Below, piece by piece: positions 172 through 32,000 of a DNA stretch of 32,000 bases (its first letter is position 1; every line of letters starts with the position of its first letter). Under the pieces are notes generated by a model, which was given only the letters and a program-made list of their open reading frames with translations, did not search any database and was not told where the DNA came from. The translations under genes were made by a program, and so were the position numbers. Source of the stretch: Candidatus Iainarchaeum sp. (GTDB lineage Archaea > Iainarchaeota > Iainarchaeia > Iainarchaeales > CSSED10-239); assembly GCA_937968065.1 (NCBI GenBank), contig CALBUD010000033.1, positions 1 through 32,000 of the forward strand. The letters are read 5' to 3'.

Positions 172-3100
172 TTAATCACATCTTAAAGAATCAGAAGCTG
201 GTTCAATAAAACTAGAATTATTTGAATATATTTCTGTTGGGTTATAGAAAAACTCAGAGGTTTTTCCATCAACAGAATTAACCACACAAATCTTATTTTC
301 AGAAACCATATCAAATACTTTTTTAATAGAGTTTATCTCAAGATTATTTCCTTGAGAAGAAGAGGAACCTAAAGATATATTTGAAGAATAATTATTACCT
401 GTTGTTGAAAATTTAACATTTACACCTTGACTTGATCTATCTTCAAGTGTATATATACTATTTTCTGGAGTGTAAAAGATTGTTCTAAGATAAACTTTTC
501 CAGTTCTTATAACTTGTGGCCAATCAAGAACAAATGTTGATTGAGGTCCTTCTGTTCCAGAATATCTATCATAATAAACCATATTAAACATATTGTTTCC
601 AGAAAAATCACATCCAGAACCAACACCAGTCCATCTTAAAAGAGAAGTTGAATCAACTAAGGTGTTATCTGATGAATCTTTTAATCTATAATAAACATTT
701 AAAGGATTTGTGTTTCTTGTTTCAACTTCCATTAAAACAGGAATTGCTTTACTTGGACTAAATATTAAATCAATTATGTTTTCTTGATATTTAACAGATA
801 AAACATTTCCTCTACTTTCAATTGAAGAATTAATCTTATAAATATCATTTGTTTTTGTAATATTTACTGTTCTTAAAGCGTTTGAACCATAATCAGGTGT
901 TGTTACAACATTTTCTTCATCAATTCTTATAGTATCTCCAGTATATGTAACTCCATACCCTTGTCTATTATACCCTGAAGTTGTTTGTCCTACAAAACCA
1001 TTAAATGGAAGTCTATAAAAAACACTATCTGTTTCTGGAGAAGAAATAAAACCAAAGGTTACAAATGCTTCAGCATCAATTTCTCCATTTCTTTCAAAAT
1101 TCCAAGAACTATTTTCAAATAAGAAATCTATTTTTATTCTATATTTTCCTGGAACATTAATATTTACATTATTTGTTTCATCTGAATATTGTTTTATAAA
1201 TAATAAATTATTTTTGAAAAGTTTAGATAAATAACCATTATTAAAGGTGGTTGGAGATGACATTATTGAAGAAGAACCTATTTGAGAACCATCTTCTCTT
1301 GAAGCAAGACCACCATATGCAGCATCAAAATCATTTATAAAATTATTATTATATTTATCTGTTATTAAATAAACTTCAAACTCTAAAAGTTCTTTTAATC
1401 TTAAAATATCTTGTTCTGTCCATTGAGAAACAACATTATCAGGATACATCTCTTTATTAAACCACATATCAAGATAACTAATTCCATTTTCTTTAACAGT
1501 TGTTGCTGGAACTAAACAATCAGAAGTTTGAGATTGCTCATAAATATCAAGTGAAACTAAAGAACTAAAACTATTATTAAAAGGATCACTATCCTCTCCA
1601 GAATAGATGATTGATAAAGAAAGATTTTCTCCAAGGATTGGAGTTGTTTCATAAAATTCTAAAATAACTTCTGTTGTGGTATCTCCTGAAGTTTGTTTTA
1701 GTTCAATTGGTATACTTGAAAGATTTCCTGTAATTTCTGTTAATTCATCTGTTGAAAAATCTCTAACATATGCTTTCTTTGGTAGTTTATTATCAAGACT
1801 TGCTGCTAAGTTTCCATTTTTATTATTTCCTGTTCTATTATCTAAAGATATTTTAACAATTAATTTTTCTTCAGAAGTTAAAATACTTACTTGATCAATT
1901 CCTGTTCTTGAAGCTGAAACATTATAATCTGCATTATATGGTTGTGCATCTTTAATATAATATGAACCAATTAAAGATTGACTTGCTAAAGATTCTGAAC
2001 TTATAGGACAAGAAACTGGTTTTGAAGCTATTAGTTCTTGTGCTTTATTAATTCTATTTAAAACAACTTGTGTTAATTGAGTTGCATCACAATAGTTTTC
2101 AGAACATTTATCTATATCTTCTAAAGACCAAGACCAATCAAGAGAGATGTTTGGAACAGCACCCTCTCCAGTTTTTCCAATCTTTCCTGTGTCTGTAACA
2201 CAATCAAGAAGAGTTAAATCATAGTTTGGAGTTTCTTCTGGTTTTGATATAAAATATGCAAATCTAAATTTTCCTATATTTTCTGTATTTTTAAAAGCAG
2301 GATCTTGCATATCTATAGAATCATCTAATGTTGGATTAAAATCTATTGTTTTAAAGAAATATTTTTTTGAATTATTATTTATTTGTGTATAAAAATCATC
2401 AGAAAGATTAAATTGTAAAGGTTTTATACCTGCTTGTTCAGGCCAGATAACTTCATCTGCTCTACAGGTATATCTAAAGTCTGTTTCAAGTTCTATTTTG
2501 TTTCTAGTTGGTTTTGAACCATAACACTCGATTGTGTGTGAAAGTTTTCCATCTTCAATAATTGGTTCAAAGATACCACTACAGTTTTGGTTTTTAATTA
2601 TTTGTGCATCAAACTTATCAAAAATAAATCCTGGTTGGTTACATAAAGTATAGTTTGATAAAGAAAGATTAGCATTCTTTGTAAGTTTATTTTTTGATGC
2701 AGGGTCTGTCATGGTTATAAGATCATGGTAGGTTATATATCTTGAACCTGTAATATCAAAAATATTTATATAAGAGGTGCTTTCTGAAACATCATTTATT
2801 TGTATAATCTTTGTTTTTTCATGATTTGGTTTTGTATGTTTTTGTTCAATATCTAAAAATCTATTAACTATTAAAGGATATTCAAACTCATTTTTCCAAC
2901 TAGTTGCAGCCCAAGAAACTAAAGCCCCAACTCCAATAGCTGCCCAACCATAAGGCCCAATTCCTGCAAGAGCTGTGTAGATGGCAGTTGAACCTAAAGC
3001 GGTTCCAGCTGTTCCTGCAGCTGCTGCAGCAGCTGCTGTTGCTGCACTAACACCAATAGCTCCACTATAAACACCAATTGCAAGTGTTGAGGTTGTTAAA

Positions 3101-32000: not shown

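What the first reader, a model, noticed from the sequence alone, without database searches (positions are those of the whole stretch)
172..32000. Co-directional locus of four paralogous giant surface proteins, a secreted module paralog and a pilin-like protein: candidate uncharacterised cell-surface or cell-cell contact apparatus
About 10,400 codons in six consecutive same-strand genes fill the window. None looks like an enzyme, transporter or housekeeping gene.

A, C, D and F are collinear paralogs:
- A, C and D have a leader plus signal anchor. F's N-terminus is outside the window.
- All four have 5-7 CarboxypepD_reg/PEGA-like repeats.
- All four have a block with a conserved double Cys: LCNDTFCFSG, FCSTDFCLTS, QCSSLLCYSV and DCKGDFCFSH.
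- All four have one more such repeat: ILTVIVKDSQGGLIEGANINV, FDLVVKAKDFQTKLPVKDTTVTI, VILKVTDSQGSVVPEANVNV and FSIDVFDSVTSTPIDNAFISF.
- All four have several beta-sandwich domains with phi-x-phi-x-N-x-C strands.
- They then diverge into different C-terminal solutions built from membrane re-entry segments, a ~900-aa module, a coiled coil, an acidic tail and prion-like tracts.

A pilin-like gene sits inside the cluster. Such density of giant, membrane-tethered, Ig-like-repeat proteins is what one expects of an attachment organelle in a small-genome episymbiont. I recognise no described system with this composition.
Basis: partly seen in the sequence, partly recalled or inferred. Interest (0 to 1): 0.85.

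Follow-up and report, generated by a model that had tools for sequence, protein, structure and literature searches.

The report
Giant surface-fibre gene cluster, DPANN archaeon
The window is almost entirely one conserved gene cluster from a tiny-genome Iainarchaeota (DPANN) archaeon; it encodes four related, membrane-rooted, roughly 2,400-residue fibre-like surface proteins, a split-off "head" subunit and a pilin-like protein, none with a known function, and they probably form a long surface attachment or contact structure.

Summary
Six co-directional genes, all on the minus strand and transcribed F→E→D→C→B→A, fill the window with about 10,445 codons.

- **Paralogy:** A, C and D are collinear paralogs (BLASTP 1e-27 to 1e-30 over 1,100-1,400 residues). 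F is a more distant one (2e-8).
- **Architecture:** each giant has a conserved leader, one transmembrane anchor, a rod of beta-sandwich domains and a C-terminal part. The first domains are transthyretin/CarboxypepD_reg-like; the later ones resemble ASH and macroglobulin (MG) domains.
- **Head module:** A and B share a module of about 690 residues stabilised by cysteines. It has no Pfam, NCBIfam or PDB match by sequence. By fold, only one Ig-like subdomain matches anything.
- **Source:** a relative of Ca. Forterrea (Iainarchaeota). The same F-E-D-C-B-A order recurs in at least eight independent contigs, so the contig is not chimeric.
- **Distribution:** distant genomes labelled Iainarchaeum carry a trio of giants. 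C plus B together correspond to one ancestral giant, so this is a gene fission. The module defines 694 protein clusters, almost always at the C-terminus of proteins of 2,200-3,250 residues.

My best reading is a set of long surface fibres with binding heads, at confidence 0.5. An attachment or cell-contact role is plausible but untested. The kind of protein is familiar (fibrillar adhesin-like), but this family and its head module appear undescribed.

The parts
172..7650 (-). Gene A, 2492 aa: a giant 'leader-stalk-head' protein. It corresponds to the last giant (G2) of the trio seen in distant genomes.
   Evidence: ORF. It has 54-62% identical full-length orthologs in L002 and L004, and a 61% identical match over its first ~1450 residues in L003. 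It best matches the downstream giant in distant loci.
7474..7650 (-). A residues 1-59: conserved cytoplasmic leader plus a single transmembrane signal-anchor.
   Evidence: Hydropathy peak of 2.88 at residues 27-59. The first 100-residue window is among the best conserved in A, at 59% identity.
3151..7473 (-). A residues 60-1500: rod of about 14-15 beta-sandwich domains. These are transthyretin-like repeats, a 350-residue block with the CNDTFC double-Cys (nt 5371-5388), one more repeat, then ASH/MG-like domains.
   Evidence: Pfam CarboxypepD_reg 2e-11, SpaA and Big_1. Repeat HMM. AlphaFold model of residues 576-1500 with pLDDT 77.6, all beta. Foldseek matches to ASH and MG domain arrays at 1e-21 to 1e-13.
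2881..3129 (-). A residues 1508-1590: Gly/Ala-rich hydrophobic segment of about 80 residues between rod and head. Probably a membrane hairpin or an oligomerisation zipper.
   Evidence: Sequence. Orthologs score Kyte-Doolittle 1.7-2.8 over 20-65 residues at the same position, and 47 of 92 family members have such a segment. Identity to orthologs here is low, 20-30%.
211..2292 (-). A residues 1787-2480: C-terminal head module with the motif TG..A.P.I.L.W....C...YCDATQ plus a helix, conserved Cys pairs, and an FFYNP end.
   Evidence: Module HMM 1e-168. BLASTP against B 6e-38.
7673..10561 (-). Gene B, 962 aa: secreted stand-alone head subunit. It has a Sec signal peptide (residues 1-26), a poorly modelled N-terminal region (27-258; predicted helices only at 27-80) and the head module (259-942, nt 7736-9787).
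   Evidence: module HMM 3e-203. AlphaFold pLDDT is 70-90 across the module. No Pfam, NCBIfam, PHROG or PDB match.
10645..15456 (-). Gene C, 1603 aa: leader, anchor and rod only. It ends in an amphipathic segment (from residue 1471), a helical stretch and an acidic (PEDET)n tail (nt 10648-10740). Together with B it equals one ancestral giant (G1).
   Evidence: C residues 1-1500 and B's module hit the same single ORF of ~2400-2670 aa in distant loci.
15486..22514 (-). Gene D, 2342 aa: leader, anchor and rod. It has a 143-residue tract rich in Tyr, Gly, Asn and Gln (nt 18255-18683) and a short divergent head (residues 1901-2340, nt 15495-16814). It corresponds to the first giant (G0) of the trio.
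   Evidence: Three collinear weak module-HMM matches. hhalign E = 1.6e-4 on the TG...YCD motif. D matches the upstream giant of distant loci.
22719..24395 (-). Gene E, 558 aa: pilin-like protein. Its N-terminus is MFNQKG|FNLFTAMIALMLVSITIVFIYNM (nt 24300-24395), followed by a domain containing 8 Cys.
   Evidence: It always lies between F and D in the seven contigs that hold it, and the motif N[QK]KGFNLFTAL persists down to 27% overall identity. No family or PDB match.
24532..32000 (-). Gene F, at least 2488 aa, N-terminus off the window. It has a rod, a tract rich in Tyr, Asn and Thr (nt 28822-29067) and only the Cys-helix motif of the head (nt 27634-27750). A two-helix hydrophobic segment follows (nt 25939-26112), then about 470 residues that by eye include a possible coiled coil.
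   Evidence: Orthologs of 2674-2696 aa carry the leader and anchor.

Best explanation
The locus encodes a family-specific set of very long, membrane-rooted surface fibres from a Forterrea-like Iainarchaeota (DPANN) archaeon.

**How each giant is built (A, C, D, F).**
- A conserved cytoplasmic leader of about 45 residues and one transmembrane helix hold it in the cell's own membrane, N-terminus inside.
- A rod of roughly 14-16 beta-sandwich domains projects outward. If extended it would reach tens of nanometres, long enough to pass any S-layer.
- The far end carries a head module of about 690 residues, stabilised by disulfides and rich in invariant Asp.

**How the paralogs differ.**
- A keeps the full head.
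- C has lost it to gene fission. The head is now the secreted protein B, which presumably re-associates with C's tail.
- D has a shortened head.
- F has replaced most of the head with a hydrophobic hairpin plus a C-terminal region that may include a coiled coil.
- E is a pilin-like accessory protein held in the membrane by, or assembled through, a class-III-type N-terminal helix.

**Likely role.** The heads are the likely binding surfaces for a partner cell envelope or another surface.

**Shown versus inferred.**
- Shown: architecture, paralogy, fission, conservation, distribution across genomes, and lack of any enzyme signature.
- Inferred: surface exposure, extended length, C-B re-association, and the binding function.
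For: - **Real, ordered genes.**
- **Synteny.** The same F-E-D-C-B-A order or parts of it occur in independent contigs L001-L004 and L075-L079, from different samples.
- **N-terminal anchor.**. It is present in 89 of 92 family members. The leader motif is conserved across distant genomes.
- **Beta-sandwich rod.** Pfam, repeat HMM, AlphaFold pLDDT 77.6 all-beta, Foldseek matches to ASH and MG arrays.
- **Head module.** A-B 6e-38. There are 694 clusters, 455 of them at E <= 1e-30, nearly always C-terminal in proteins of 2200-3250 aa. Invariant Cys, Asp, Trp and Gly columns appear.
- **Extracellular location.** B has a Sec signal peptide and the Cys pairs are conserved.
- **Fission.** C and B map onto one ORF in distant genomes.
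- **Cost.** The cluster is about 33 kb in genomes of 0.67-0.84 Mb. That is roughly 4-5% of the coding capacity, which argues for an important role (my arithmetic).
- **Host dependence.** The nearest named relative is predicted to be symbiotic (PMC5905446).
Against: - No domain of known binding specificity is present.
- The head model matches only an Ig/CARDB-like subdomain in PDB and BFVD.
- Sequence conservation is fairly even along the rod and head. Adhesin tips usually evolve fast.
- Earlier work suggested that Diapherotrites are free-living (quoted in PMC5905446), so a host may not exist for all carriers.
- No pilus assembly or secretion genes lie in the small part of the flanks that could be read.
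- There are no expression or localisation data.
Confidence: 0.5

Rival explanations
1. Structural envelope scaffold. The giants are constitutive cell-envelope components, for example spacers or anchors that hold the S-layer at a fixed distance, or a fibrous coat. They would not be adhesins.
For: - They are conserved across many genomes labelled Iainarchaeum as tandem paralogs.
- Identity along the whole length is uniform at 45-65%.
- The cytoplasmic leader is strongly conserved.
- A-type members may be tethered twice, at the N-terminus and by the mid-chain hydrophobic segment.
Against: - A different MSTP-like protein of 1039 aa (A0A2G9N319) has been proposed as the Iainarchaeota S-layer protein (preprint 10.1101/2024.05.28.596244).
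- No S-layer domain, PGF-CTERM or C-terminal anchor is present.
- Nothing here tests an interaction with that protein.
Confidence: 0.25
2. Membrane-inserting cell-cell bridge. The mid-chain Gly/Ala-rich hydrophobic hairpin of A-type giants, and that of F, inserts into a partner cell's membrane. The giant would then tie two membranes together and help form the cytoplasmic bridges seen in other DPANN-host pairs.
For: - Hydrophobic segments of 20-65 residues lie at a fixed position just before the head in 47 of 92 family members.
- F has a segment of about 50 residues with Kyte-Doolittle 1.6-1.9.
- The rod is long enough to span an inter-cell gap (inference).
Against: - The simplest reading is re-insertion into the cell's own membrane.
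- The G1-type paralogs lack the segment.
- No similarity to fusogens or pore formers appeared in PDB or viral fold searches.
- No host is known.
Confidence: 0.1
3. Tethered enzyme or nutrient-capture device. The head would be an unrecognised hydrolase or binding protein for polymers, displayed on a long stalk.
For: - Invariant Asp, Ser, Arg and Gln columns occur in the head.
- Peptidase genes (M6, M64-like) sit in or near the locus in some relatives.
Against: - No catalytic family matches by Pfam, NCBIfam or PDB profile.
- The invariant acidic cluster DGY..DF..DFD looks to me more like a metal-binding site than a catalytic one.
- The neighbouring peptidase genes are not conserved parts of the locus.
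Confidence: 0.07
4. Assembly artefact, or non-functional or pseudogenised reading frames in AT-rich DNA.
For: At 27% GC, long ORFs can arise more easily, and the contig (32,631 nt) is hardly longer than the locus.
Against: - Six ORFs of 558 to over 2488 codons have no stops.
- Full-length orthologs at 52-65% identity sit in the same order on contigs of up to 840 kb, including a complete genome.
Confidence: 0.01

Closest known systems
Fibrillar adhesins of bacteria: giant surface proteins with an Ig-like-repeat stalk and a terminal binding domain, such as the SiiE, Bap or SdrD type.
   Same: - Very long non-enzymatic surface proteins.
- A stalk of many tandem beta-sandwich domains. Pfam SpaA, SdrD_B and Big_1 appear among the weak hits.
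- A distinct terminal domain.
- Encoded in clusters of paralogs.
   Different: - Archaeal.
- Anchored by an N-terminal leader and signal-anchor rather than LPXTG, a type I secretion signal or an autotransporter.
- The stalk domains are diverse rather than near-identical repeats; self-BLAST finds none.
- The terminal module matches no known adhesive domain.
- Conservation is uniform rather than tip-variable.
Alpha-2-macroglobulin / complement-type proteins with arrays of MG domains, including the bacterial membrane-anchored forms.
   Same: - Arrays of MG-like beta-sandwich domains by fold (Foldseek 1e-15 to 1e-13).
- Weak Pfam bMG3 and MG4 hits.
- N-terminal membrane tether.
- Large size.
   Different: - No thioester motif.
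- No helical thioester domain in either model.
- Pfam scores fall below the curated cut-offs.
- TM-scores below 0.2 show only domain-level likeness.
ASH/PapD-like domain arrays of ciliary central-apparatus proteins (chains of PDB 9ijj, 7som and 7sqc).
   Same: They are the best structural matches to the rod of A, at E 4e-21 to 3e-17 over 850-980 columns.
   Different: They are eukaryotic cytoplasmic proteins with 8-12% identity and TM below 0.2. This is a likeness of fold type only, not of function or descent.
SPEARE giant proteins of Nanohaloarchaeota (PMC6642349).
   Same: Giant proteins of a DPANN archaeon, proposed to mediate host contact.
   Different: As I recall, SPEARE proteins are defined by serine protease, adhesion and restriction-endonuclease domains. 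None of those domains is found here.
Type IV pilins and class III signal peptide proteins of archaea and bacteria.
   Same: E starts with a short basic stretch, then Gly, then about 22 hydrophobic residues (KG|FNLFTAMIAL...). This N-terminus is the best conserved part of the protein. One relative carries a canonical archaeal pilin signal (KGQISVEVL) next to E.
   Different: - No N_methyl or class III signal Pfam hit.
- No Glu at +5.
- At 558 aa it is far larger than a major pilin.
- No peptidase or assembly ATPase lies nearby.

Membership tests
Iainarchaeota 'leader-stalk-head' giant protein family (defined here) | C-terminal head module (TG..A.P.I.L.W ... C...YCDATQ + helix ... DGY..DF..DFD ... 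FYY.PF.G ... PS.ATP ... FxxNP) | tested here: met
   A 1e-168 and B 3e-203 against the module HMM. D gives three collinear weak hits and F only the Cys-helix motif. The family has 694 clusters.
Iainarchaeota 'leader-stalk-head' giant protein family (defined here) | Conserved N-terminal leader (..LYY.LEDKYY..LDKID..IP.YK..DPIDK.VPSF) followed by one TM helix | tested here: met
   C and D carry it, A carries a variant, and F orthologs carry it. An N-terminal TM is present in 89 of 92 members.
Fibrillar adhesins | Stalk of tandem Ig-like / beta-sandwich domains | tested here: met
Fibrillar adhesins | Cell-surface anchor | tested here: met
   An N-terminal signal-anchor is present. The classical LPXTG and PGF-CTERM anchors are absent.
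Fibrillar adhesins | Recognised adhesive (ligand-binding) domain | tested here: not met
   The head module has no Pfam, NCBIfam or PDB sequence match. By fold, only an Ig/CARDB-like subdomain matches.
Fibrillar adhesins | Demonstrated binding to a cell or surface | not testable with these tools
   Needs experiments.
Alpha-2-macroglobulin / thioester-containing proteins | Thioester motif C-x-E-Q and a helical thioester domain | tested here: not met
   No C[GLAS]EQ in any of the six proteins. The rod model is all-beta and the head model has no helical toroid.
Alpha-2-macroglobulin / thioester-containing proteins | MG-domain array | tested here: inconclusive
   bMG3 and MG4 hits fall below Pfam cut-offs. 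Foldseek E is 1e-15 but TM is below 0.2.
Type IV pilin-like proteins (gene E) | Class III signal: short basic n-region, Gly at -1, about 20 hydrophobic residues | tested here: met
   By inspection and hydropathy. The motif is conserved in seven homologs.
Type IV pilin-like proteins (gene E) | Match to curated pilin signal models (Pfam/NCBIfam), or Glu+5 / the archaeal QxSxE motif | tested here: not met
   No such hit, even at E <= 10. The sequence after Gly is FNLFT.
Type IV pilin-like proteins (gene E) | Prepilin peptidase and assembly ATPase/platform in the genome | not tested
   None appears in the flanks that could be read, about 1.8 kb upstream of F and up to about 2.7 kb downstream of A. 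The whole genome could not be examined.
Archaeal S-layer proteins | Known S-layer domain (MSTP/DUF1608-like, or halobacterial/thermoprotei Ig types) with a C-terminal anchor or PGF-CTERM | tested here: not met
   No such Pfam or NCBIfam hit. There is no PGF-CTERM signal: the only PGF tripeptide is internal, at A residue 1673. A different protein is proposed as the S-layer protein of the phylum.
SPEARE proteins (Nanohaloarchaeota) | Serine protease and restriction endonuclease domains in a giant protein (definition from my own knowledge) | tested here: not met
   Neither domain is found.

The most novel reading that the evidence does not exclude
The giants could be the long-sought contact machinery of a DPANN archaeon. 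In this reading the N-terminal anchor sits in the symbiont membrane. The rod of about 50 nm spans the gap between cells. The Gly/Ala-rich hairpin and the disulfide-stabilised orphan head then insert into or grip the host envelope. Together with the pilin-like protein E, they would nucleate the inter-cellular bridges through which DPANN cells obtain lipids and metabolites. The head would then be a new class of membrane- or envelope-engaging domain.
Probability: 0.1. Interest if true: 0.9.

Novelty: new variant of a known kind. Interest (0 to 1): 0.6.

Why it matters
DPANN archaea have tiny genomes and mostly unknown ways of touching their surroundings or their hosts. This cluster takes up roughly 4-5% of a 0.67-0.84 Mb genome. 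In its basic form it is conserved across many genomes labelled Iainarchaeum, so it is probably central to how these cells are built or how they interact.

The work yields several concrete handles:
- A precisely delimited protein family, with a leader motif, a rod and a 690-residue orphan head, comprising 694 clusters.
- A natural gene fission (C plus B) that marks the boundary between rod and head.
- Defined targets for metaproteomics, antibody labelling, cryo-ET and structure determination.

If the head proves to bind or insert into a partner envelope, it would make archaeal episymbiont attachment directly testable.

Tried and rejected
**Searches that found nothing useful**
- Exact-sequence look-up of the window's own proteins on contigs found nothing on record.
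- A second word-indexed homolog search with a 22-sequence profile returned the same 11 proteins and added nothing.
- PDB sequence searches with B-family profiles and with E gave no hits, even at E <= 10.
- NCBIfam, PHROGs and Pfam on all six proteins gave only beta-sandwich families. The one exception is a tape-measure PHROG hit on A's Gly/Ala-rich segment, which I treat as compositional.
- Pfam on the leaders and on E's N-terminus at E <= 10 gave nothing meaningful.
- Foldseek of the B model against PDB and viral structures matched only one Ig/CARDB-like subdomain. The integrin, lectin and tail-fibre hits have TM at or below 0.11 for the query and at most 0.16 for the target, with rmsd above 20 Å, so I rejected them.
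- Self-BLAST for near-identical internal repeats found none.
- Pfam on neighbouring genes in relatives gave no secretion or pilus machinery. It found only TrmB, coiled-coil DUFs and M6/M64-like peptidases that are not conserved in the locus.
- Rfam and tRNA scans of the window found nothing.
- The first metagenome scan with E alone found nothing. The repeat with a two-sequence alignment succeeded.
- Literature searches on Forterrea, Iainarchaeota and DPANN giant or surface proteins found no description of these proteins.

**Technical failures**
- The first representative-library job failed because the profile was too long.

**Hypotheses considered and rejected**
- Alpha-2-macroglobulin: no thioester.
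- S-layer protein: no S-layer domain, and another candidate has been published.
- SPEARE: none of its domains is present.
- Fusexin-like fusogen: no fold match.
- Alternative genetic code or chimeric assembly: the ORFs are clean under table 11 and synteny is conserved.
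Full report
**1. What is in the window**

The window has 27% GC with little variation. Six long ORFs, all on the minus strand, occupy almost all of it:

| Gene | Coordinates | Length |
|---|---|---|
| A | 172-7650 | 2492 aa |
| B | 7673-10561 | 962 aa |
| C | 10645-15456 | 1603 aa |
| D | 15486-22514 | 2342 aa |
| E | 22719-24395 | 558 aa |
| F | 24532 to the window end | at least 2488 aa |

- The letters follow plus-strand order, so transcription runs F, E, D, C, B, A.
- There are no tRNAs and no Rfam matches.
- The only other ORF of at least 100 codons is a 115-codon antisense frame inside D. 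I regard it as spurious.

**2. Check of the observation**

*Paralogy.* All-against-all BLASTP gives:

| Pair | E-value | Aligned columns |
|---|---|---|
| A-C | 5e-30 | 1403 |
| A-D | 4e-27 | 1253 |
| C-D | 1e-29 | 1106 |
| D-F | 2e-8 | 479 |
| A-F | 4e-5 | 111 |
| A (C-terminus)-B | 6e-38 and 5e-9 (two segments) | 424 and 175 |

*Anchors.* A, C and D each have one strong hydrophobic segment at residues ~27-70, preceded by a polar leader. B has a typical Sec signal peptide. E has a hydrophobic N-terminus.

*Domain families.* Pfam finds only beta-sandwich families: CarboxypepD_reg at up to 8e-19, then SpaA, Big_1, bMG3, MG4 and SdrD_B. It finds nothing in B or E.

*Repeats.* An HMM seeded on the Pfam hits and iterated within the six proteins detects 3 to 6 transthyretin-like repeats per giant.
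- They sit at collinear positions, roughly 65, 247, 334, 427 and 514.
- Each giant has one more repeat after a non-repeat block of about 350 residues, at A 927, C 964, D 935 and F 769.

*Motifs and tracts.*
- The double-Cys motif C-x4-C occurs once in each giant.
- C's acidic tail is encoded by a 15-nt unit repeated 7 times.
- D has a 143-residue tract that is 57% Tyr, Gly, Asn and Gln. F has a weaker 82-residue tract rich in Tyr, Asn and Thr.

**3. Source organism and reality of the locus**

B has 10 homologs besides its own database copy, at 35-65% identity, in the 5.8-billion-protein index. All are unnamed or labelled 'hypothetical'.

A pattern scan of one genome per species found 190 stretches that encode the B module. 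Nearly all are in records labelled Candidatus Iainarchaeum (Diapherotrites, DPANN) or unclassified archaeon. A few carry other submitter labels: Micrarchaeota, Thaumarchaeota and Chloroflexi. I could not check those.

The nearest hits are:
- the complete 839,632-bp genome of Ca. Forterrea multitransposorum, 64% identity;
- a 671-kb contig of another Iainarchaeum.

The order F(2696 aa)-E(558)-D(2321)-C(1704)-B(964)-A(2426) is reproduced on an independent contig. Parts of the same order appear in L002-L004 and in five metagenome contigs, L076-L079 and L081. Chimeric assembly and chance ORFs are therefore excluded.

**4. Architecture of the giants**

*Leader and anchor.*
- The leader plus anchor is a conserved feature. 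The motif ..LYY.LEDKYY..LDKID..IP.YK..DPIDK.VPSF, followed by a TM helix, is seen in 42 giant ORFs of the fetched loci.
- 89 of 92 full-length family members have an N-terminal TM.
- F orthologs have the leader too.

*Rod.*
- An AlphaFold model of A 576-1500 has mean pLDDT 77.6 and is entirely beta, with about nine sandwich domains (13-row alignment).
- Its best PDB matches are arrays of ASH-type domains from ciliary central-apparatus proteins (E down to 4e-21) and MG-domain arrays of alpha-2-macroglobulin and complement proteins (about 1e-15).
- All TM-scores are below 0.2, so the likeness is in domain type only.
- There is no thioester motif.
- With the five or six N-terminal repeats, the rod has roughly 14-16 domains. 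My estimate is that it would extend several tens of nanometres.

*Mid-chain hydrophobic segment.*
- Between rod and head, A has a Gly/Ala-rich hydrophobic segment of about 80 residues.
- Its orthologs score as TM-like over 20-65 residues at the same place. About half of all family members have such a segment (47 of 92).
- F has a comparable two-helix segment.

**5. The head module and the gene fission**

The module covers B 259-942 and A 1787-2480. Its invariant features are Cys pairs, a TG..A.P.I.L.W...C...YCDATQ motif followed by a long helix, an acidic DGY..DF..DFD cluster and a terminal FxxNP.

*Distribution.* A profile search of 1.84 billion cluster representatives finds 694 proteins at E <= 1e-3, of which 455 are at E <= 1e-30. 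The module lies almost always at the C-terminus of proteins of 2200-3250 residues. Stand-alone proteins of about 960-1090 residues appear only among the closest relatives.

*Lack of known relatives.*
- It has no Pfam, NCBIfam, PHROG or PDB sequence relative.
- The AlphaFold model of B has pLDDT 65 overall and 70-90 over the module.
- That model matches PDB and viral structures only through one Ig/CARDB-like sandwich of about 125 residues.

*Fission.* Distant genomes such as AR10 and CP064981 carry three tandem giants.
- The middle giant aligns with C over residues 1-1500 (E as low as 1e-127) and with B over its C-terminal head.
- The downstream giant aligns best with A.
- The upstream giant aligns with D.

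C plus B is therefore an ancestral giant split into a rod gene and a secreted head gene.

*D and F.*
- D retains a shortened head, shown by three collinear weak matches to the module HMM and hhalign E = 1.6e-4.
- F keeps only the Cys-helix motif (i-E 2e-4).

**6. Gene E**

E has no family, PDB or paralog match. Its N-terminus, MFNQKG|FNLFTAMIALMLVSITIVFIYNM, has the form of a class III (prepilin-type) signal.
- In the three closest orthologs (51-52% identity), the first 60 residues are nearly invariant.
- Homologs down to 27% identity keep the motif N[QK]KGFNLFTAL.
- In the seven other contigs that hold E (L075-L081), it lies after an F-like gene and before a D-like gene wherever the contig extends far enough (six of the seven; L080 is too short).
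- In L079 a 317-residue protein with a canonical archaeal pilin signal (KGQISVEVL) and an M6 peptidase lie between F and E.
- Curated pilin models do not match E. No peptidase or assembly gene is seen in the readable flanks.

'Pilin-like' is therefore plausible but unproven.

**7. Interpretation**

*Shown by the evidence.* This is a conserved, costly cluster of N-terminally anchored giant proteins with a beta-sandwich rod. It amounts to about 33 kb in genomes of 0.67-0.84 Mb. The proteins carry an orphan, disulfide-stabilised, extracellular head and show no enzyme signature.

*My reading.* The most economical interpretation is a set of long surface fibres whose heads bind something outside the cell, with E as an accessory (confidence 0.5).

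*Points against a classical adhesin.*
- Identity to orthologs is even along the length, at 45-65%.
- No known binding domain is present.

*Rivals.*
- **Structural role in the envelope** (0.25) remains a serious alternative. The S-layer lattice itself is probably another protein: a published prediction names a 1039-residue MSTP-like protein for this phylum.
- **Bridge into a partner membrane** through the hydrophobic hairpins is possible but speculative (0.1).
- **Tethered enzyme** is unlikely (0.07).

**8. Novelty**

The kind of protein is familiar: giant surface proteins made of Ig-like repeats. This family differs from described systems in five ways:
- the conserved leader and signal-anchor;
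- the non-identical domain rod;
- the optional mid-chain hydrophobic hairpin;
- the orphan head;
- the tandem-paralog organisation with a pilin-like gene.

I found no description of it in the databases or in the paper library. I rate it a new variant of a known kind, with interest 0.6.

Noticed in passing
window 10638-10743: A 15-nt unit repeated 7.1 times at 94% match encodes the acidic (PEDET)n tail of C. In orthologs this tail region is much longer: C homologs are 1704-1874 aa against 1603 here. It is also poorly conserved, at 22% identity. That suggests a length-variable spacer.
   Followed up: partly
window 18255-18683 (D residues 1278-1420); also L042 1-4179, L022 1-4017, L070 2-3850: A tract rich in Tyr, Gly, Asn and Gln, flanked by Cys, sits just before a conserved '..NNC.EAV' strand. 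Tracts of similar composition but unrelated sequence occupy the same place in the upstream giant of distant genomes, for example GYGNYPNNFGGAYGYGGYPSGYSYGQGYGG in AR10. The loop is conserved in position but low in complexity, and its role is unknown.
   Followed up: partly
window 22511-22514: the ORF listing starts D at a TTG that is immediately followed by ATG. The exact TTG-started protein is not in the protein collection, whereas the C and E products are. The ATG start gives MGLRSFYY..., matching the MGLKKLYY... start of C. The real start is probably the ATG at 22511.
   Followed up: partly
L003 20370-20732 and 20723-22876; L001 20264-20641; L002 20881-22908: In close relatives, A is followed by a 120-125-aa secreted protein and a secreted Cys-rich protein of about 700-816 aa with no Pfam match. 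These may belong to the same locus but lie beyond the window's end.
   Followed up: partly
L014 19477-19794, L019 19574-19888, L023 19771-20091, L045 2874-3197 and others: In distant genomes labelled Iainarchaeum, a conserved small membrane protein of 105-132 aa, starting MN.RGF and very hydrophobic, lies shortly downstream of the last giant. It may be a partner. It was not seen in the Forterrea-like clade.
   Followed up: no
L079 6496-9843; L006 5716-9708; L009 13075-19513: Some relatives have extra genes for secreted proteins inserted inside the cluster. L079 has a canonical archaeal pilin-signal protein and an M6 peptidase between F and E. L006 has a 1331-aa protein between C and B. L009 has 1492-aa and 640-aa proteins between B and A. 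The locus seems to tolerate or attract surface-protein insertions.
   Followed up: partly
last residues of A (..DSLRCD) and B (..GACIVN); P0013, P0017 (..LECS, ..LKCS), P0020 (..ECIPAQ): Head modules end with a conserved Cys two to six residues from the C-terminus. This may form a terminal disulfide, either within the chain or between chains.
   Followed up: no
P0020: One family member is labelled 'protocatechuate 3,4-dioxygenase beta subunit' by JGI. This is almost certainly a mis-annotation caused by its transthyretin-like repeats.
   Followed up: no
window 18877-19224 (+): A 115-codon GTG-started ORF lies antisense inside D. It is probably a chance frame in AT-rich DNA. I did not test it for homologs.
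   Followed up: no
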